From NCBI GenBank assembly GCA_902605365.1, contig CACLCM010000005.1:3759-67758 (forward strand): a stretch of 64,000 bases of DNA. The letters are read 5' to 3'. The notes under the pieces are model-generated. The model was given only the letters and a program-made list of their open reading frames with translations. It was not told where the DNA came from and ran no database searches. Of this stretch, positions 48,929 to 56,730 are shown piece after piece. The translations under genes were made by a program, and so were the position numbers. Source of the DNA: an uncultured Candidatus Poseidoniales archaeon (GTDB lineage Archaea > Thermoplasmatota > Poseidoniia > Poseidoniales > Poseidoniaceae). Each line of letters opens with the position of its first letter. The first letter of the stretch is position 1.

Positions 48929-48996
48929 GTTAGGGGCCTGTCAAGACTCCCATGTAAATCCAATGCACACATTAGTACGAATTGCATAGCATATGC

Positions 48997-49770
48997 ATGG
49001 GCGGGACGGTCGTCATCAAGTGGGGAGGGGGTTTAATCACTCACAAGGACCAACTTTGTACCGTTAATCTTGATGTAATTGATTCCTTAGCCAAGGCTTG
49101 CTCAAAATCTAGTAAGAAATTAGTGATTGTACATGGTGCTGGCTCCTTTGGCCATATGCTGGCTAAGAAGTTCCGTCTTGCTGAAGGAAGAATTGCAGGA
49201 CTGATGCAAGATGAAACCATTGAAAGAGTACGTTCAGACATGATTGAATTGAACAATCATGTACTTTCTTCTTTGCAAAAGTATGGTCTTGATGCTAAAA
49301 CATTCTCACCACACCTTTGGGCTACTGGAACCGGTCCTGATTTCAAAGGCGAATTGCCAATTTATGATGGAGTAACCGTTGTTTATGGCGATGTAGTTGA
49401 AGATTCTGAGAAGGAATTTGGTATTTTATCAGGCGACGATATAATGTTGAGATATTCTACCGAATTACCAGATGTTGAGCGAGCAGTATTCGCCATTGGT
49501 GGTGTAGACGGTATTTTACGGGTTCCACCTTCGAAAGCAGGGCCTGAAGATTTGATTGAAATCTGGTCACCTGATATGGAATTTGAAGGTGAACATGCTG
49601 TTGAAATCGATGTGACTGGAGGAATTGGTCTAAAGGCAGCCAGAGGTGCCATGATTTCAGAAAAAGGAGTTGATGTTCAGATAATTAATGGCGAACACCC
49701 CAACCGTGTTTTGGCTGCGATCGATGGTGAAAATGTACTCGGAACCAAGATTGTTTCAGGGAACTGTTGA
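48997..49770 (+). CDS. ipk: Isopentenyl phosphate kinase
   Basis: IKWGGGLIT.K, VHGAGSFGH, YGDVV, ILSGD and DVTGGI..K. Confidence 0.9.
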   Translation: MGGTVVIKWGGGLITHKDQLCTVNLDVIDSLAKACSKSSKKLVIVHGAGSFGHMLAKKFRLAEGRIAGLMQDETIERVRSDMIELNNHVLSSLQKYGLDAKTFSPHLWATGTGPDFKGELPIYDGVTVVYGDVVEDSEKEFGILSGDDIMLRYSTELPDVERAVFAIGGVDGILRVPPSKAGPEDLIEIWSPDMEFEGEHAVEIDVTGGIGLKAARGAMISEKGVDVQIINGEHPNRVLAAIDGENVLGTKIVSGNC

Positions 49771-49806
49771 TGTAGTGGACGCGAAACCGATTATTTGGCG
49801 AGTACT

Positions 49807-51537
49807 ATGTCTGGATATGTCATCAGCGATGTTCCAACGGCACAAGTTCGTAGTGACGCATCTGATGTCTTGGGCGGAAGTGATTCCATTCAAGAGTCAC
49901 TAATGGCAGAGGCTGTCATACAAGTTTCTGAAAATGATGAAGTAATAGGTCCTATCTCTAAATTCGATAGTCATTACAAAGTTGGCACTTATCATAGGGC
50001 TTTTAGCGTATTATTATTCGATTCATCTGGAAGATTACTTCTTCAAAGAAGAGCATCACACAAGATCACATTCCCTGATGTCTGGGCCAATTCATGTTGC
50101 TCACATCCACTTCATAGTGATGAAGAGTTGGAAATGAAAAACAACCTCGGTGTGAAGCGAGCAGCAATTCGCAAATTGGAGCAGGAATTGGGAATATCCC
50201 CTTCCCAAGTACCAATAGATAACTTCGATTTCGTTACAAAAATGCGCTATCAAGCTCGCCAAGATGATGACTGGATTGAAAGAGAAGTCGACCATTGTTT
50301 AGTTATCCATGCAGATGTAGATGTTAATCCTAATCCTAACGAGGTTAGCGAAATTAAATGGGTTAGTCAGGCTGAATTAGAAGAAATGCTACTTGCAGAA
50401 GATCCGGAAAATGTAATTGCACCTTGGTTTAGATGTATAGCTGCTAGAATCATGGATGATGATTGGTGGAGACCAGGTTGCGCTAAGTCAGATGATTTGA
50501 TTCATGATATGGGTGATGTTTCGCATATGTTGCCCAATGCAATTGGCGCTGACCTAAACACTAGCATAGCCGAGGTCAAGGATTTAGTAGAACTAAGAAT
50601 TGAAAGAGCCCTCACCCATACTTCCCTAGAACGACTATCTGGTGCTATGATGCACTTGGTCGAAGGTGGAGGCAAAAGGTTGCGTGCAACTCTACCTTGG
50701 TTGGTTGCCAAGGCAGTTGGAGATTCTCACTCAGGATTGTTGGATGTTGGTGCGGCGATTGAAATTATTCACAATTTCACATTAGTTCATGATGACATAA
50801 TGGATGATGATGACATTAGGCGTGGCCGTCCAGCAGTCCATGTGGAATATGACTTACCTACGGCGATTAATGCTGGAGATGCTATGCTTGCAATAGCCTT
50901 TGAAGCGATGGCAGTGGCAGAAGGTATTGAGCCTGAACTCTTACCTTTCCTCGTTAAGAGAATTGGCCGTATGGTTCGCAAATGTAGCGAAGGTCAGCAA
51001 TTGGATATTGAATTTGAAGATAGAGGATTTGTTACTGAAGAAGAATACATCACCATGATTCATGGTAAGACAGCAGCAATGTTCCTTACTTGTGCTGAAG
51101 TAGGTTCTCATCTCGCAGGTGCTGATTCTGATACGATTGAATGCATGCATGATTGGGGACTTGCAGTTGGATTATGTTTCCAACTGATGGATGACTTAAT
51201 CGATGTACTGTCTGATTCTGATACGCTGGGCAAGCCTAGTGGAAGTGATGTTGCTCAAGGTAAACGTACTCTGATGGTCATACACGCTTTGGGCCAGCCA
51301 CCTTCCAACTCTAAGGATGACTTGATGGCAGTATTAGGTAAGGGTGATGATGTGAGTGCTGAACAGGTTCTTCTTGCTCATAAAGCACTGGAAGATTTGG
51401 GTTCTATCGATTATGCCCGTTCCAAAGCAGAGTCTTACCATAGAAAAGCCCACGATTGTCTAGATAGATTGCCAGATAGCCCTGCTATGAGAGCACTGAG
51501 AGAATTGACGGACTACCAACTTAAGCGGATATATTGA
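49807..51537 (+). CDS. idi: Fusion of type-1 isopentenyl-diphosphate isomerase (Nudix) and geranylgeranyl diphosphate synthase
   Basis: HRAFSV, KITFP..WANSCCSHP, EREVD and PWF, followed by GGKRLR, HDDIMD..RRG, GQQLD, KTA and FQLMDD. Confidence 0.92.
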   Translation: MSGYVISDVPTAQVRSDASDVLGGSDSIQESLMAEAVIQVSENDEVIGPISKFDSHYKVGTYHRAFSVLLFDSSGRLLLQRRASHKITFPDVWANSCCSHPLHSDEELEMKNNLGVKRAAIRKLEQELGISPSQVPIDNFDFVTKMRYQARQDDDWIEREVDHCLVIHADVDVNPNPNEVSEIKWVSQAELEEMLLAEDPENVIAPWFRCIAARIMDDDWWRPGCAKSDDLIHDMGDVSHMLPNAIGADLNTSIAEVKDLVELRIERALTHTSLERLSGAMMHLVEGGGKRLRATLPWLVAKAVGDSHSGLLDVGAAIEIIHNFTLVHDDIMDDDDIRRGRPAVHVEYDLPTAINAGDAMLAIAFEAMAVAEGIEPELLPFLVKRIGRMVRKCSEGQQLDIEFEDRGFVTEEEYITMIHGKTAAMFLTCAEVGSHLAGADSDTIECMHDWGLAVGLCFQLMDDLIDVLSDSDTLGKPSGSDVAQGKRTLMVIHALGQPPSNSKDDLMAVLGKGDDVSAEQVLLAHKALEDLGSIDYARSKAESYHRKAHDCLDRLPDSPAMRALRELTDYQLKRIY

Positions 51538-51952
51538 CGCTTCCAGTCGATAAAACCCTGCAGTACCATCTGGTTTCACCTGGATATTTCTTGTTAGATA
51601 TTCTGTCAAATTTACCATTGGTAAAAGAGTCAGAAATTTTGTAGCATGGTTTAGCTGCAGACATTACTTCAAGTTCTACATCTCCAACCTGAAATTTGGT
51701 TCCAATTTGTAGATTGAACCCTTCAACCAATAAGTTCTCACCAGTTGTTCCAGCTTTAATCGGATGGCCTTCACTTTGTAATTTCAACAGCAACTCATTT
51801 TCTAATACACAAACAGCACGCTGTAGTCCACCATGATACTTTTTGTCATTTTGATAATCGCCTACTAAGCCTTCATACTCAATGTTAGCACTATCAATTG
51901 ATAATTTTGGAACTCCGCCATTAGAGACGAAAATTCCAAGCACTTGGCCCAT
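51521..51952 (-). CDS. MOSC-domain protein (YiiM-like)
   Basis: GVPKLSI, HGGLQRAV, GENL and PCYKI. Confidence 0.85.
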   Translation of the reverse strand: MGQVLGIFVSNGGVPKLSIDSANIEYEGLVGDYQNDKKYHGGLQRAVCVLENELLLKLQSEGHPIKAGTTGENLLVEGFNLQIGTKFQVGDVELEVMSAAKPCYKISDSFTNGKFDRISNKKYPGETRWYCRVLSTGSVNISA

Positions 51953-51975: not shown

Positions 51976-54183
51976 TCACTCTGCGTAGTAAGACTCAGGG
52001 TTTGGATCTGGTTTCAATCCCTTACGAGTACGGATTTCTCCAACTACCTTATCGAATAATTGCGGAGGTAGAATCTCGAAACCTATGTTTTCAGAGTTCC
52101 AAACAGCACGACCTTGAGATGCAGCACGGATATCGTTGGAGAATCCGAATGTTTCTGCTATAGGAAGTGTTCCGATAACGGTGGTTGCTTCTCCTTCTGA
52201 AGGCATGTCTTCGATGATTCCACGGCGGTTTGTGATTTCACGAGTAACTTGTCCAAGCCAGTCGTTAGGAACGCTGACGTGGGACCTTTGCATAGGTTCC
52301 ATCAATACGGTGCGAGCACGAATCATTGCGCCCTTGATTGCATTACGTACTGCAGGAATAGTCTGTGCAGGTCCACGGTGAATTGCATCTTCGTGTAGTT
52401 TTGCATCGACTAATCTGACCATCATGCCCATTACTGGCTCATCTGCCACTGGACCTTTCTTACATACTTCATTGAATGATTCTATAATCAGTTCACGAGT
52501 CTCGTGTAATCCCTGAATACCCTTTGTGTCATTGACTAGAACGTTGGTACCGCTGATTGCGTAAATCTTACGCATTTTGTCCTTGTCCATACCAAGTTCG
52601 CCGAATTTGTTTCCGACTTCCTTAGCGTCTCCAGAGCGAACTGTTCCGTTTCCAAAGTGTCCTTCACGAAGCGCAGCGACTACCTCAGGAGATAGTGGCT
52701 CACATTCGATCATGAATCTGTTGTGACGGTTAGGAGATTTACCTTCGAAAGAACGTCCTTTGTTGTTACCTTCTACAGATTCTCTGTATACTACGATAGG
52801 TGGGCTAACCTTTACCTTGATGTTTTGTTCTTCCTCAAGACGGAATACTGTAATCTCCAAGTGCAGTTCTCCCATACCTGCTAGAAGAGCCTCTCCAGTT
52901 TCTTGGTTAGTAGTAACCTGAAGTGAAGCATCAGACTTTGCAAGAGAACGTAGAGCATCGACGAATTTTGGAAGGTCCTTCATACTCTTTGGTTCAACAG
53001 CCACTGTTACAACAGGGTCTGAGTAGTGACGAATAGCTTCGAACGGAGTGAAATCTTTGTCACGAGATAGTGTTACACCAGCTGCTGCTGAGCGAATACC
53101 TGTGATTGCTGCAATATTACCTGCTACAACCTTAGGGACTGGGATTCTGTCTCCTCCAACCATCATGCTAACTTGCTGAACACGCTCAGGCTTTGCAGCA
53201 CCGATAGCGAATACAGATTCACCCTGATTGATAGAACCTGAATATAGTCGGCCCACTGCAACTTCACCTGCATGCGGGTCCATCCAAATCTTGGTGATCA
53301 TCATAGCAAGTTCTGCTTCTGGGTCACAATCCATCATTGCCTTACCGATTGGGGATTCTAAGTCTCCGTTCCAGATGTTAGGGATACGGTATGGCTGTGC
53401 TTCAACTGGACCTGGTAGTTTTGTAACAGCCATGTCCAAGAGAACTTCATGCACTGGAGCCTTCTTAGCCAGAGTTTTCTGGTCTTCATTGTTACAGTAC
53501 TCGAAGATTTCAGTCATGGATACTCCTGACTTCTTCATGTAAGGGATTGTAATTCCCCAATTGTGGTATGCTGAACCAAATGCTACAGTTCCATCCAATA
53601 CACTGACTTGCCATTTCTTTTCCATTCCTTCTGGAGCAAATGAGTGAATTAATTTGTTAACTTTCTTGATAGTTTCTTCAAACCTCTTCAACATGTCTTC
53701 AGGGGTTACCTTCAATTCGTTGATTAGTCGGTCTACCTTGTTGATGAAAAGAACAGGCTTAACCTTCTCCTTCAAAGCCTGCCTAACAACTGTTTCAGTC
53801 TGAGGCATTGGGCCTTCAACTGCACACGCTAGAATGAAACATCCGTCGACCGCACGCATAGCACGGGTAACGTCTCCACCGAAGTCTACGTGACCAGGTG
53901 TGTCGATGAGGTTGATTAGGTAATCAGTACCTTCTACTGCGTGAACCATAGATGCAGAAGCAGCGTTGATTGTAATTCCACGAGCACTCTCTTGTTGATC
54001 GAAATCAAGAACACGGCTCTTACCTGCAAGGTCTTCGCTCATCATTCCTGCACCTGCAATCAGGTTGTCAGAAAGTGTAGTTTTTCCGTGGTCGATGTGA
54101 GCCGCAATACACAGGTTACGAATCTGTGGTAGAATGTGCATTACTTCTGTTGCCTTCTTGATGTTGTCTTCTTTACGGCCCAT
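51976..54183 (-). CDS. fusA: Elongation factor aEF-2
   Basis: AHIDHGKTT, RGITI, DTPGHVDF, NKVD, and the HEDAIHRG diphthamide loop. Confidence 0.98.
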   Translation of the reverse strand: MGRKEDNIKKATEVMHILPQIRNLCIAAHIDHGKTTLSDNLIAGAGMMSEDLAGKSRVLDFDQQESARGITINAASASMVHAVEGTDYLINLIDTPGHVDFGGDVTRAMRAVDGCFILACAVEGPMPQTETVVRQALKEKVKPVLFINKVDRLINELKVTPEDMLKRFEETIKKVNKLIHSFAPEGMEKKWQVSVLDGTVAFGSAYHNWGITIPYMKKSGVSMTEIFEYCNNEDQKTLAKKAPVHEVLLDMAVTKLPGPVEAQPYRIPNIWNGDLESPIGKAMMDCDPEAELAMMITKIWMDPHAGEVAVGRLYSGSINQGESVFAIGAAKPERVQQVSMMVGGDRIPVPKVVAGNIAAITGIRSAAAGVTLSRDKDFTPFEAIRHYSDPVVTVAVEPKSMKDLPKFVDALRSLAKSDASLQVTTNQETGEALLAGMGELHLEITVFRLEEEQNIKVKVSPPIVVYRESVEGNNKGRSFEGKSPNRHNRFMIECEPLSPEVVAALREGHFGNGTVRSGDAKEVGNKFGELGMDKDKMRKIYAISGTNVLVNDTKGIQGLHETRELIIESFNEVCKKGPVADEPVMGMMVRLVDAKLHEDAIHRGPAQTIPAVRNAIKGAMIRARTVLMEPMQRSHVSVPNDWLGQVTREITNRRGIIEDMPSEGEATTVIGTLPIAETFGFSNDIRAASQGRAVWNSENIGFEILPPQLFDKVVGEIRTRKGLKPDPNPESYYAE

Positions 54184-54278
54184 GGTGAATCACCTGACTC
54201 TCGTCTATCCTCGCCACCTTGAAGGGGTTTATCAAATCGACTACCGAATTAACAGTCATTCGGTGTGCTGTGTGCTGA

Positions 54279-55430
54279 TTAAACAGCTCTTGCAAATGTT
54301 TTGTATTGACGATTCATTTCCTTGAAAACCGCCTTCAATTCTGCCTTTAATTCAGCATAGTTTTTCTTGAGTTCAATGATTTTATCTTTTACAGCTTTCT
54401 TTGAGGAAGCCACACAATTTTTCAATTCACGTTTCAGTTTGTGTATTTCATACAAACTCGTACGCATTGAGGATTTGTGTTCATCAATTTGATTTTGAAA
54501 CTCTTCAGTGTCGATATTTCTGGATTCTAATTTACTGAATGCTTTCTTTGTTTTTATATCGATCTTAGCCGCCTCTATCGAATGTTTAGGTGTTGATTTC
54601 AAATTAGATTTTAGTCCTAAGAAATTGAAACTAGTTATCCACCATTTACTCGGGTCTACATGATACCACTTGTGGCCATTTCTGTAGTCGGCCTGGAATG
54701 TGTGGTGGAAGTTGTGATATCCCTCACCAAATGTTAGGAATGCTAACCAAAACGAGTCACGGCTTGAATTTTCTTCTGAGTAGGGCTGTGTGCCCCAGAT
54801 GTGTGCTGCACTATTTATCAGGAAAGTTCCGTGATGTACAAACACTGTTCTAACCAAGCCACCCCATACTAGACAACCAACACCTGTGGCAAATCCTCCA
54901 ATCAAAAATCCAATTAATGCAGGAAGTATAATTCCTGATATAGCACCAATCAAGAATATGTTCCTATGTTGCCACATAATTATCTTGCTAGATTGTAGGT
55001 CTTTGACATTCGAAAAATCATTTTGGAAATTTTCTTCTTCTACCATAACCCATCCCATATGTGAATACCAGAACCCCTTGGCTGCAGAATAAGGGTCATT
55101 TTCAGTGTCGGTTGATTTGTGGTGGTTCCTATGATCGGAACACCACTCTATTATTGAATTTTGAAATGCTCCCGCACCAAATATTGCGTAAAATAATACT
55201 AGCGGCCAAGACGCCTCATGTGACCTGTGTGAGAACAGACGGTGATATCCTACCGTAATCGATAATCCACAGGCGAAATAAAACGCTATGAATACTAGAA
55301 ATTCAGTTAACCCCGGTGCAGATAATAGACTCCAATGTAGAATGACTCCCGCTAAGGCAAGAATTGGGGTTAATAGCAGGAATACAGTATTCAGCCAATT
55401 TATTCTAGTCGCCGCACTGTATTCGGTCAT
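54279..55430 (-). CDS. Membrane acyl-CoA/acyl-lipid delta-9 desaturase (bacterial/OLE1-like) with a coiled-coil tail
   Basis: His boxes HRLFSH, HRNHH and HNFHH; TFLINSAAH; GEGY; DYRNG. Confidence 0.9.
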   Translation of the reverse strand: MTEYSAATRINWLNTVFLLLTPILALAGVILHWSLLSAPGLTEFLVFIAFYFACGLSITVGYHRLFSHRSHEASWPLVLFYAIFGAGAFQNSIIEWCSDHRNHHKSTDTENDPYSAAKGFWYSHMGWVMVEEENFQNDFSNVKDLQSSKIIMWQHRNIFLIGAISGIILPALIGFLIGGFATGVGCLVWGGLVRTVFVHHGTFLINSAAHIWGTQPYSEENSSRDSFWLAFLTFGEGYHNFHHTFQADYRNGHKWYHVDPSKWWITSFNFLGLKSNLKSTPKHSIEAAKIDIKTKKAFSKLESRNIDTEEFQNQIDEHKSSMRTSLYEIHKLKRELKNCVASSKKAVKDKIIELKKNYAELKAELKAVFKEMNRQYKTFARAV

Positions 55431-55506
55431 ATGGCTGGCGCCAAGACTAACGCTATTCAGTATTGGGGTGGGTTGCTAAGCAACACAACCATTGTGGCTA
55501 CTAACT

Positions 55507-56145
55507 TCAGCGTGCGCTTGATGCGATACGTTGAACTTCTTCTTTCTTAGATACAGCGAAAGATGTAACATCACCATTGCTGGCTTTGGTTAGTTCATTG
55601 ATGATACACTGGGTTAGTGTACGCTTGGATTTTGAAGTTCCTTGTTGTGCTCCCTTTGCTAGATTAGCTAATGCGACATCTAAGCGACGGGATGGAGAAC
55701 TGTCTACAGCCTTAGGTTGAGATACTGCTCCGAATTTGATACGAGTGATCTCTTCCATTGGAGCTGCATGGCAAATAGCATCGACAAATGCTTGTAATGG
55801 GTTTTCGCCACTACGCTCTGCCATGGAATCCAGTGCAGTTTCAAATGCCTTTAGTGCTCCTTGCTTCTTACCGGTGTACTTACCAGTTCGCATCAATTTG
55901 TTAACGAACCTCTCTACAACAGAAAGGCGTGCTTTACCAAACCATGCGTTTGCATGTCTTCCACCAGTGTGAGGTACACCGACGGTTGAGAGATTGATGT
56001 AAGGTGCTAATCCAGGGTCTCTGCAAACTACTTCAGTTGCATCATACTTACTGAAAACGAGAGTTCCTATGCCTGCGATTGGCTTGACTTCTTCAGGTGT
56101 AGCTTCTTCTTCGACCACTTCTTGTGTCTCGACTTCTTCACTCAT
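55507..56145 (-). CDS. rps7: 30S ribosomal protein S7
   Basis: APMEEITRIKFG, AVDSSPSRRLD and KKEEVQRIASSAR. Confidence 0.95.
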   Translation of the reverse strand: MSEEVETQEVVEEEATPEEVKPIAGIGTLVFSKYDATEVVCRDPGLAPYINLSTVGVPHTGGRHANAWFGKARLSVVERFVNKLMRTGKYTGKKQGALKAFETALDSMAERSGENPLQAFVDAICHAAPMEEITRIKFGAVSQPKAVDSSPSRRLDVALANLAKGAQQGTSKSKRTLTQCIINELTKASNGDVTSFAVSKKEEVQRIASSAR

Positions 56146-56160
56146 CTAAATCACTCCGAA

Positions 56161-56589
56161 TCATCGTACTGGCTTTTCTTTGCGTCCACGAACCATCTCA
56201 TCAAGTGAGACGCCGTTGACTTGAATGACCTTGTAACGGACACCAGGAATATCTCCGTATGAACGACCCATGCGTCCACCGATACCTTCGACCATCACTT
56301 CATCGTGTTCGTCGATGAAGTTGATAGCACCATCACCAGGTGCGAAGGCTGTGAGTTTGTTACCGTTCTTGATTAGTGAAATCTTGACCGCTTTACGAAT
56401 TCCGGAGTTAGGCTGCTTAGCCTCAATTCCTACTTTTTCGATAACGATACCCTTTGCTTGAGTTGAACCTGCAAGAGGGTCGTGCTTTGCTCTAGATTTG
56501 AGCATACGCTTCTTGTATCTTCGGTCGGACCATCTAAACTTTTGGCGGTCCTTTGCCATCTTGGTTCCTGCGAACAATCCACGACCCAT
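56161..56589 (-). CDS. rps12: 30S ribosomal protein S12
   Basis: [11 protein letters not shown] and [10 protein letters not shown]. Confidence 0.97.
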
Positions 56590-56730
56590 GTCAAAACACT
56601 CCATTGAAGCATTTTGCCGACCTACCTCCCCTATTTCATGGTGCCGATTGATTCAGACTGGTTGAATGCGACACGCATCGCTTACTGAACAGTGCCAATG
56701 TTCATGGTTATTCCCCTACAGCAAGGGTAC

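What the first reader, a model, noticed from the sequence alone, without database searches (positions are those of the whole stretch)
54279..55430. Bacterial-type delta-9 fatty acid desaturase between rps7 and EF-2
All three His boxes are intact. The gene splits the normally adjacent rps7-fusA pair, and EF-2 has its own TATA-like element and RBS. Archaea build isoprenoid ether lipids, and those genes are in this window. An acyl desaturase is therefore unexpected and bears on proposals that MGII make or remodel fatty-acyl lipids. It may instead serve catabolism or act on a non-canonical substrate. Its AT-rich 3' part suggests horizontal acquisition (inference).
Basis: partly seen in the sequence, partly recalled or inferred. 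Interest (0 to 1): 0.65.

Follow-up and report, generated by a model that had tools for sequence, protein, structure and literature searches.

The report
Fatty-acid desaturase gene in marine archaeon
An intact, bacterial-type fatty-acid desaturase gene sits between ribosomal protein S7 and EF-2 in a Marine Group II archaeon; it is an old, order-wide and already annotated gene, and it adds one testable piece to the open question of whether these archaea use fatty-acyl lipids.

Summary
ORF 54279-55430 (- strand, 383 aa) is a stearoyl-CoA-desaturase (SCD/Ole1)-type membrane di-iron desaturase. All metal ligands and the substrate-tunnel kink residues are present. It lies between rps7 and the EF-2 gene.

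It is neither an assembly chimera nor a recent transfer. The S12-S7-desaturase-EF-2 order recurs in many independent Poseidoniales assemblies from two families. All Poseidoniales copies form one clade (99/99), next to bacterial homologues at 38-43% identity. Those homologues carry the same charged helical C-terminal tail of about 95 aa.

The AT-rich 3' part simply encodes that Lys/Glu-rich tail. Its GC3 matches the neighbouring genes. EF-2 keeps the same upstream TATA-like and Shine-Dalgarno-like elements whether or not the desaturase is present, so the gene sits in a permissive gap between two probable transcription units.

Context: PlsC-type acyltransferases occur in 121 of 121 genomes of the order. 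A KS-AT-KS-ACP-KR-DH megasynthase with FabI and a PPTase occurs in 83 of 121, including all 49 desaturase carriers. Cytochrome b5 occurs in none.

Most likely function: O2-dependent cis-delta-9 desaturation of C16/C18 acyl chains for glycerolipids. Activity was not tested. This is a new member of a known kind, of moderate interest.

The parts
56161..56604 (-). Ribosomal protein S12 gene, first gene of the S12-S7 unit
   Evidence: Pfam Ribosom_S12_S23, 147.6 bits
55507..56145 (-). Ribosomal protein S7 gene
   Evidence: Pfam Ribosomal_S7, 117.6 bits
55471..55490 (-). Weak inverted repeat (GGTTG...CAACC) just after the S7 stop. Many relatives have a hairpin of different sequence at this place. 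It could be a terminator or processing element.
   Evidence: Sequence. Folding of 19 homologous spacers gave a mean z of -1.0, present in many but not all. Weak evidence.
55447..55470 (-). Conserved motif (ACCCCAATAsTsAATAGCG-like) 17-40 nt upstream of the desaturase ATG. It is a candidate promoter or operator of the desaturase. There is no Shine-Dalgarno-like sequence before the ATG.
   Evidence: Alignment by eye of the S7-desaturase spacers of 19 loci. The function is inferred; there are no transcript data.
54576..55430 (-). Desaturase catalytic domain (aa 1-285): four predicted membrane helices and the di-iron site. His boxes at nt 55227-55244, 55119-55133 and 54702-54716; NSAAH at 54801-54815.
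54279..54575 (-). Desaturase C-terminal tail (aa 286-383) plus stop codon. It is Lys/Glu-rich and predicted as three long helices (282-302, 309-338, 341-381). This is the AT-rich 3' part.
   Evidence: AlphaFold2 model with pLDDT 80-93 in the tail; composition; tail shared across the order and with bacterial homologues
54228..54237 (-). TATA-like element (ATTTGATAAA) of the EF-2 gene, 45-54 nt upstream of its ATG
   Evidence: Conserved as TTTGATAAA / CTTAAGAAC / TTTATGAAC in 18 spacers with the desaturase and 15 without it. Promoter function is inferred.
54189..54194 (-). Shine-Dalgarno-like GGTGAT, 6-11 nt upstream of the EF-2 ATG
51976..54183 (-). Elongation factor 2 gene
   Evidence: Pfam GTP_EFTU, EFG_III, EFG_IV, EFG_C
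51521..51952 (-). MOSC-domain protein gene downstream of EF-2. It is syntenic within the genus. No link to the desaturase is shown.
   Evidence: Pfam MOSC, 66.4 bits; synteny in L021, L023, L024 and L032

Best explanation
The gene encodes a functional SCD/Ole1-type integral-membrane di-iron acyl desaturase of the bacterial subfamily that carries a charged helical C-terminal tail. The ancestor of Poseidoniales (Marine Group II) acquired it once, most likely from bacteria, and it has since been inherited, moved or lost. In this genome it sits as a probably self-promoted gene in a permissive gap between the S12-S7 unit and the separately promoted EF-2 gene, so the position says nothing about function. 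Inferred mechanism: using O2 and two electrons from a donor that is not cytochrome b5 (ferredoxin-type or unknown), it introduces a cis double bond, most likely at delta-9, into saturated C16/C18 acyl chains held as thioesters or already esterified in glycerolipids. The chains would come from the order's own KS-AT-KS-ACP-KR-DH megasynthase with FabI and a PPTase, and/or from scavenged fatty acids. The universal PlsC-type acyltransferases would place them in glycerolipids, where unsaturation tunes membrane fluidity. Shown here: fold, ligands, tunnel-kink residues, phylogeny, synteny and gene co-occurrence. Inferred: activity, regiochemistry, substrate carrier, electron donor and membrane role.
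For: Sequence and fold: SCD1 at E 2e-48. Foldseek top hits are 4zyo and 4ymk, probability 1.0, TM-score 0.69-0.74 on the target. All nine His and the Asn of the SCD1 metal site are present and invariant in 13 diverse Poseidoniales sequences. The Gln-Trp-Thr triad that kinks the SCD1 tunnel at C9-C10 (PMC8533217) aligns with Q90, W96 and T202. W96 and T202 are invariant; Q90 is E in two sequences. Purifying selection is implied by 66% mean column identity across sequences that are 50-73% identical overall. The gene is in 49 of 121 genomes of the order, 10 of 21 genera and all three families. Poseidoniales copies are monophyletic: 99/99 in the careful tree and SH-aLRT 94 in the 99-row tree. They sit beside Gammaproteobacteria, Verrucomicrobiota, Bdellovibrionota, Elusimicrobiota and Acidobacteriota, and far from the tail-less SCD-like clade of other Thermoplasmatota. 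A gammaproteobacterial Ole1-like DesA (Shewanella SO_0197) has been shown genetically to supply unsaturated fatty acids (PMC4273635). Lipid context: PF01553 acyltransferase in 121 of 121 genomes; this genome's copy has NHLSHVD and FPEGTRS. The megasynthase, FabI and PPTase operon is in this genome. The KS megasynthase is in 83 of 121 genomes and in all 49 desaturase carriers. The literature reports no G1P dehydrogenase but a G3P dehydrogenase in the order (PMC6461757), and no known archaeal intact polar lipids in MGII-dominated water (PMC6962369).
Against: No activity, transcript or lipid data exist. The gene is missing from about half of the genomes, including whole genera such as g3 and the streamlined Thalassarchaeaceae-like genera. 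It is decayed in at least one complete genome (G003: split, His box 2 region missing). It is therefore accessory, not a core membrane enzyme. The link with the megasynthase is confounded by phylogeny and genome size: by genus, 10 of 10 carriers have it against 6 of 11 non-carriers. SCD-family enzymes with other regiospecificities exist (insect delta-11 and others; general knowledge), so delta-9 is an inference. No electron donor was identified. Other studies attribute GDGTs or unsaturated archaeols to MGII (PMC7291766).
Confidence: 0.65

Rival explanations
1. The enzyme handles scavenged fatty acids rather than home-made membrane lipids. Like Pseudomonas DesB, it would desaturate exogenous saturated acyl-CoAs taken up during growth on lipids, for remodelling, detoxification or routing, alongside beta-oxidation.
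For: In one Poseidoniales lineage (L038) the desaturase is flanked by two enoyl-CoA hydratases, a 3-hydroxyacyl-CoA dehydrogenase and a PaaA/PaaC-like protein. In the g2/g4 clade it lies 1.6 kb from a secreted GDSL lipase (L031, L033). Beta-oxidation genes are reported in all genera and are highly transcribed (PMC6461757; PMC9723583). The patchy distribution fits an accessory trait.
Against: Delta-9 desaturation has no known role in beta-oxidation and costs O2 and reductant. The beta-oxidation neighbourhood is seen in one locus only. All carriers also have the megasynthase. This rival overlaps the main explanation, because scavenged chains could still end up in membranes.
Confidence: 0.2
2. 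The enzyme acts on a substrate other than a fatty acyl chain, for example the isoprenoid or alkyl chains of ether lipids. That would make it an O2-dependent desaturase of archaeal lipids.
For: Unsaturated archaeols have been proposed as MGII markers (Zhu et al. 2016, as cited in PMC7291766). The organism has isoprenoid genes right beside the locus. The only archaeal lipid desaturase characterised so far is a radical SAM enzyme, so di-iron enzymes in archaea are unexplored (bioRxiv 10.1101/2025.10.20.683597).
Against: The tunnel-kink residues and the whole catalytic core match enzymes that take straight acyl chains. The closest relatives are in ordinary fatty-acid-lipid bacteria. Unsaturated archaeols are usually explained by incomplete geranylgeranyl reduction. 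No member of the SCD subfamily is known to take methyl-branched chains (general knowledge).
Confidence: 0.07
3. The gene is an artefact here: a bacterial contaminant joined to an archaeal contig by misassembly, or a decaying pseudogene.
For: It has bacterial affinities, and its GC (0.389) is lower than S12, S7 and EF-2 (0.45-0.47).
Against: The same S12-S7-desaturase-EF-2 order occurs in at least 20 loci from independent assemblies in two families. Hundreds of near-identical copies occur in ENA, JGI, NCBI and TARA data. The frame is intact with all ligands. GC3 equals that of the neighbours.
Confidence: 0.01

Closest known systems
Mammalian stearoyl-CoA desaturase 1 (SCD1; PDB 4YMK, 6WF2, 4ZYO) and yeast Ole1
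   Same: About 33-34% identity over the whole catalytic domain. Same four-helix membrane fold, same nine-His plus Asn di-iron site, and same Gln-Trp-Thr tunnel kink.
   Different: There is no cytochrome b5 domain or gene anywhere in the order. It carries a charged helical C-terminal tail of about 95 aa that SCD1 lacks. The host is an archaeon. SCD1 Trp262 (human numbering) is Phe203 here.
Gammaproteobacterial Ole1-like DesA, e.g. Shewanella oneidensis SO_0197 (PMC4273635)
   Same: Bacterial, closer to Ole1/SCD than to Pseudomonas DesA, and stand-alone without a fused redox domain. The sampled gammaproteobacterial homologues (Aeromonas, Vibrio, Idiomarina, Ferrimonas, Colwellia) are 38-43% identical, have the same length (366-381 aa) and the same kind of C-terminal charged helical tail.
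   Different: I could not fetch SO_0197 itself, so its place in the sampled clade is inferred from taxonomy. Those bacteria use it as an aerobic back-up to FabA within a classical type II fatty-acid synthase. Poseidoniales instead have a type I megasynthase.
Pseudomonas aeruginosa DesA family (NCBIfam NF049918, phospholipid delta-9 desaturase)
   Same: Similar length, and a weak match along most of the model (positions 12-335 of 385).
   Different: It scores 82.9 bits against a cut-off of 400, so it is not a member. The bacterial sister sequences also fail, at 38-90 bits.
SCD-like desaturases of other Thermoplasmatota
   Same: Archaeal, with the same Pfam family and His boxes; 31-36% identity.
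   Different: They have no C-terminal tail and are 272-319 aa long. They form a separate clade on a long, fully supported branch (100/100), so they have a different origin.

Membership tests
SCD/Ole1-type membrane acyl desaturase (Pfam PF00487, SCD1 fold) | Pfam FA_desaturase match above the gathering score | tested here: met
   65.1 bits against 29.7
SCD/Ole1-type membrane acyl desaturase (Pfam PF00487, SCD1 fold) | Three His boxes: HX4H, HX2HH, HX2HH | tested here: met
   HRLFSH 63-68, HRNHH 100-104 and HNFHH 239-243. The His residues are invariant in 13 Poseidoniales sequences.
SCD/Ole1-type membrane acyl desaturase (Pfam PF00487, SCD1 fold) | Ninth His and the water-bridging Asn (NX3H on the fourth membrane helix) | tested here: met
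   N206 and H210 (NSAAH) align with NSAAH of SCD1
SCD/Ole1-type membrane acyl desaturase (Pfam PF00487, SCD1 fold) | SCD1 three-dimensional fold | tested here: met
   AlphaFold2 model with pLDDT 74. Foldseek against PDB: 4zyo and 4ymk, probability 1.0, TM-score 0.69-0.74 on the target; the next hits have E above 1.
SCD/Ole1-type membrane acyl desaturase (Pfam PF00487, SCD1 fold) | Gln-Trp-Thr triad that kinks the tunnel at C9-C10 | tested here: met
   Q90, W96 and T202 align with human Q147, W153 and T261. Q90 is E in 2 of 13 relatives.
SCD/Ole1-type membrane acyl desaturase (Pfam PF00487, SCD1 fold) | Desaturase activity and delta-9 regiochemistry | not testable with these tools
   Needs expression and fatty-acid analysis
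Eukaryotic SCD electron chain | Cytochrome b5 as electron donor | tested here: not met
   PF00173 found in 0 of 121 genomes of the order. The donor must be of another type.
NCBIfam NF049918, DesA family desaturase (Pseudomonas type) | Score above the curated cut-off of 400 bits | tested here: not met
   82.9 bits
Bacterial tailed Ole1-like DesA subfamily | A protein of about 370-390 aa with a charged helical C-terminal tail of about 90 aa after the catalytic domain | tested here: met
   The tail is present in 80 fetched homologues, including 60 bacterial ones, and tblastn matches run to query residues 360-383. The tail is predicted helical.
Bacterial tailed Ole1-like DesA subfamily | Groups in the tree with these bacterial sequences rather than with other archaeal SCD-like genes | tested here: met
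   The clade of Poseidoniales plus bacteria has 100/100 support against other Thermoplasmatota. The order of branches within it is unresolved.

The most novel reading that the evidence does not exclude
Poseidoniales make, desaturate and esterify their own fatty-acyl chains, so that this abundant archaeal order builds ester or mixed ether/ester membranes with monounsaturated fatty acids. The toolkit would be a type I megasynthase with FabI and a PPTase, this O2-dependent SCD-type desaturase, PlsC-type acyltransferases and a G3P backbone. The order would then sit across the lipid divide, and this gene would be its homeoviscous control point.
Probability: 0.3. Interest if true: 0.85.

Novelty: new member of a known kind. 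Interest (0 to 1): 0.42.

Why it matters
What lipids Marine Group II archaea make is an open question. Field studies disagree and there is no culture. Genomes lack G1P dehydrogenase but have G3P dehydrogenase and PlsC-like genes. A conserved, intact O2-dependent acyl desaturase always occurs together with a fatty-acid-type megasynthase. That is a further and easily testable sign that fatty-acyl chains are a real part of this order's biology. I found no paper in the searchable library that discusses this gene. A recent preprint calls a radical SAM enzyme the first archaeal lipid desaturase. The gene can be expressed in standard laboratory hosts. The position between S7 and EF-2 is only a curiosity.

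Tried and rejected
2. AT-rich tail as a transfer scar: rejected. GC3 of the tail (0.34) and of the catalytic part (0.38) match the neighbours. The low GC lies at codon positions 1 and 2 and comes from Lys, Glu, Asn and Ile.
3. Desaturase remnants in the S7-EF-2 gap of genomes that lack it: none found by tblastn at E up to 10. The longer gaps hold other small ORFs, which have no Pfam match (L104).
4. A terminator-like hairpin after the desaturase: not consistent across loci (mean z -0.2). The hairpin after S7 is only modest (mean z -1.0).
5. Membership in the NCBIfam DesA family: rejected at 83 bits against 400. The bacterial sisters fail too.
6. Cytochrome b5 as donor: absent from the whole order. 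The long homologues of 700-830 aa in the representative library are cytochrome b5 fusions or tandem desaturases, so they give no lead on the partner here.
7. Linkage of the desaturase with the megasynthase, FabI or PPTase in any fetched locus, archaeal or bacterial: none.
8. Beta-oxidation neighbours as a general rule: seen only in L038.
9. Villanueva et al. 2017 could not be read because it is not held. Its content is cited second-hand.

Full report
**1. What is there**

The ORF at 54279-55430 (- strand) is real. It is 383 aa long, with an ATG start and a TAA stop. The - strand reads S12 (56161-56604), S7 (55507-56145), the ORF, EF-2 (51976-54183), then a MOSC-domain gene (51521-51952).

The protein matches Pfam FA_desaturase at 65.1 bits against a cut-off of 29.7. 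More tellingly, it matches mouse and human stearoyl-CoA desaturase 1 at E 2e-48 over residues 12-286.

The metal ligands are all present: HRLFSH (63-68), HRNHH (100-104), HNFHH (239-243) and the NSAAH motif (206-210), which supplies the ninth His and the water-bridging Asn. The Gln-Trp-Thr triad is said to kink the SCD1 tunnel so that C9-C10 face the di-iron centre (PMC8533217). It aligns with Q90, W96 and T202.

An AlphaFold2 model built on 13 relatives has pLDDT 74. It finds only SCD1 structures in the PDB: probability 1.0, TM-score 0.69-0.74 on the target, with the next hits above E 1. Residues 286-383 form a Lys/Glu-rich tail predicted as three long helices.

**2. Not a chimera and not recent**

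The window belongs to a 1.45-Mb, roughly 60%-complete Poseidoniales (Marine Group II) genome. Hundreds of near-identical to 70%-identical full-length copies occur in ENA, JGI, NCBI and TARA assemblies. Some are already named fatty acid, acyl-CoA or stearoyl-CoA (delta-9) desaturase.

In an even sample of 121 genomes of the order, 49 carry the gene. That is 25 of 56 high-quality genomes, 10 of 21 genera and all three families.

The order S12-S7-desaturase-EF-2 recurs in the window's genus, in two further genera of its family, and in four genera of a second family. Elsewhere in the order the gene lies at other sites:
- beside an MscS channel, a 518-aa protein and a GDSL lipase in one clade;
- between enoyl-CoA hydratases and a 3-hydroxyacyl-CoA dehydrogenase in one genome (L038);
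- at other sites that I did not examine.

Where it is absent from the slot, S7 and EF-2 are 62-159 bp apart. In two genera they are separated by a different small ORF.

**3. The slot**

The last 65 nt or so before the EF-2 ATG are conserved across the order whether or not the desaturase is present. They hold a TATA-like element (ATTTGATAAA here, 54228-54237; CTTAAGAAC or TTTATGAAC elsewhere), a GGTGGC/GGTCGC box and a Shine-Dalgarno-like GGTGAT (54189-54194). So EF-2 appears to have its own promoter throughout the order. The S7|EF-2 junction is then a boundary between transcription units where an extra gene does no harm.

The desaturase has its own conserved upstream motif (55447-55470) and no Shine-Dalgarno-like sequence, which suggests a separate, short-leader transcript. 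These are inferences from conservation.

**4. Origin**

A careful maximum-likelihood tree has 55 rows. In it the 20 Poseidoniales sequences from all three families form one clade (99/99). That clade sits in an unresolved group with bacterial clades: Gammaproteobacteria, Verrucomicrobiota, Bdellovibrionota, Elusimicrobiota and Acidobacteriota. The group is separated by a fully supported long branch from the SCD-like genes of other Thermoplasmatota. A 99-row quick tree agrees.

The bacterial homologues are 38-43% identical, 366-423 aa long, and carry the same kind of charged helical tail. The other Thermoplasmatota copies are 31-36% identical and have no tail. One old acquisition from bacteria is the simplest reading. 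The direction is inferred from the breadth across bacterial phyla against a single archaeal order.

The tail's low GC lies at codon positions 1 and 2 (0.40 and 0.28), because 30 of its 98 residues are Lys or Glu. Its GC3 (0.34) and that of the catalytic part (0.38) fall within the range of the neighbouring genes (0.30-0.45).

**5. Lipid context**

- PlsC-type acyltransferases (PF01553) are in 121 of 121 genomes of the order, at one to four copies, mostly two or three. None of the archaeal control genomes has one.
- This genome's 254-aa copy has the catalytic NHLSHVD and FPEGTRS motifs.
- Cytochrome b5 is in none of the 121 genomes, so the electron donor is not the eukaryotic one.
- A search for ketosynthases turned up a 2765-aa KS-AT-KS-ACP-KR-DH megasynthase on another contig of this genome. 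It is flanked by a FabI-type enoyl reductase and a phosphopantetheinyl transferase.
- That architecture matches the uncharacterised 'Type R' secondary lipid synthases of Acidobacteria, Elusimicrobia and Chloroflexi (PMC3098273).
- The megasynthase is in 83 of 121 genomes and in all 49 desaturase carriers. Among the 72 non-carriers, 34 have it.
- By genus the contrast is 10 of 10 against 6 of 11. It is confounded by genome streamlining, so it is suggestive only.

Published work adds three points. The order lacks G1P dehydrogenase, has G3P dehydrogenase, and has beta-oxidation genes (PMC6461757). No known archaeal intact polar lipids were found in MGII-dominated water (PMC6962369). Others attribute GDGTs or unsaturated archaeols to MGII (PMC7291766).

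**6. Function**

The best-supported reading is an O2-dependent cis desaturation, probably at delta-9, of saturated C16/C18 acyl chains. The chains would be home-made by the megasynthase and/or scavenged, and would end up in glycerolipids through the PlsC-type enzymes.

The nearest experimentally studied relatives are the gammaproteobacterial Ole1-like DesA enzymes. Shewanella SO_0197 supports growth when FabA is missing, and it is much closer to Ole1 than to Pseudomonas DesA (PMC4273635). The protein studied here behaves the same way in searches: strong to SCD1, but only 83 bits against the 400-bit DesA model.

The gene is accessory. Half the genomes lack it, and one complete genome has a split copy missing His box 2. 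A role in tuning membranes to conditions therefore fits better than an essential one.

Three rivals remain:
- a DesB-like role on scavenged fatty acids (about 0.2), which overlaps the main reading;
- action on isoprenoid or ether-lipid chains (about 0.07);
- an artefact (about 0.01).

**7. Verdict**

This is a new member of a known enzyme kind, in an unusual host. It is already annotated in public records and widespread in its order. As far as the searchable literature shows, nobody has discussed it.

Earlier agents of this scan reached the same view on sister genomes. I re-derived their points independently. New here are the shared bacterial tail, the separate clade in other Thermoplasmatota, the absence of cytochrome b5, and the co-occurrence with the megasynthase.

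The value of the finding lies in giving the MGII lipid question a simple bench test, not in the gene's position.

Noticed in passing
Outside the window: G000 contig C4, about 60444-70235 (L124:4445-14236, - strand): A three-gene operon: a FabI-type enoyl reductase, a 2765-aa KS-AT-KS-ACP-KR-DH megasynthase and a 4'-phosphopantetheinyl transferase. It is a 'Type R'-like secondary lipid synthase. Both carrier-domain motifs read LGIDTV, with Thr where carrier proteins normally have the Ser that takes the phosphopantetheine. A megasynthase of this kind is in 83 of 121 Poseidoniales genomes.
   Followed up: partly
L104:1006-1455 (genus g3) and L109:458-820 (genus g5): In genera that lack the desaturase at this site, the S7-EF-2 gap holds another small co-directional ORF. 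One is a 149-aa protein with no Pfam match; the other is a 120-aa hydrophobic protein that I did not search. The slot is variable.
   Followed up: partly
G003:C1:825618-826636 and G118:C57:3792-4454: These look like decayed desaturase copies. In a complete single-contig genome the gene is split and lacks residues 87-142, which include His box 2. In another genome the match contains an in-frame TAA.
   Followed up: no
L004, L005, L022 (genus g2 genomes; L022 is on a 281-kb contig): These desaturases are 72-73% identical to the window's and nest inside the window's genus clade. Yet they lie outside the S7-EF-2 slot, in genomes of another genus whose own S7-EF-2 pair is adjacent. That points to transfer or relocation within the order; for the two short contigs it could be mis-binning.
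   Followed up: partly
Other Thermoplasmatota genomes (L125-L134): A separate, tail-less clade of SCD-like desaturases (272-319 aa, 31-36% identity) occurs in several other families of the phylum. Di-iron acyl desaturases are therefore not confined to Marine Group II among these archaea.
   Followed up: partly
L038:168-5919: In one Poseidoniales genome the desaturase sits in a CoA-thioester cluster with two enoyl-CoA hydratases, a PaaA/PaaC-like di-iron protein, an unknown 186-aa protein and a 3-hydroxyacyl-CoA dehydrogenase.
   Followed up: partly
window 49795-51537 (+): A 580-aa fusion of a NUDIX-type isopentenyl-diphosphate isomerase domain with a polyprenyl (GGPP) synthase domain. Beside it is an amino-acid-kinase-family gene (48982-49770), probably isopentenyl phosphate kinase.
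   Followed up: no
window 51521-51952 (-): A 143-aa MOSC-domain gene follows EF-2 throughout the genus. Eukaryotic MOSC enzymes, like SCD1, draw electrons from cytochrome b5, but the order has no cytochrome b5, so this is probably coincidence.
   Followed up: no
window 55471-55490 and homologous spacers: Many relatives have a hairpin of differing sequence right after the S7 stop, for example GGTGTTGCTAGCAACACC in L006 and L023. It may be a terminator or processing site for the S12-S7 unit. The signal is modest (mean z -1.0).
   Followed up: partly
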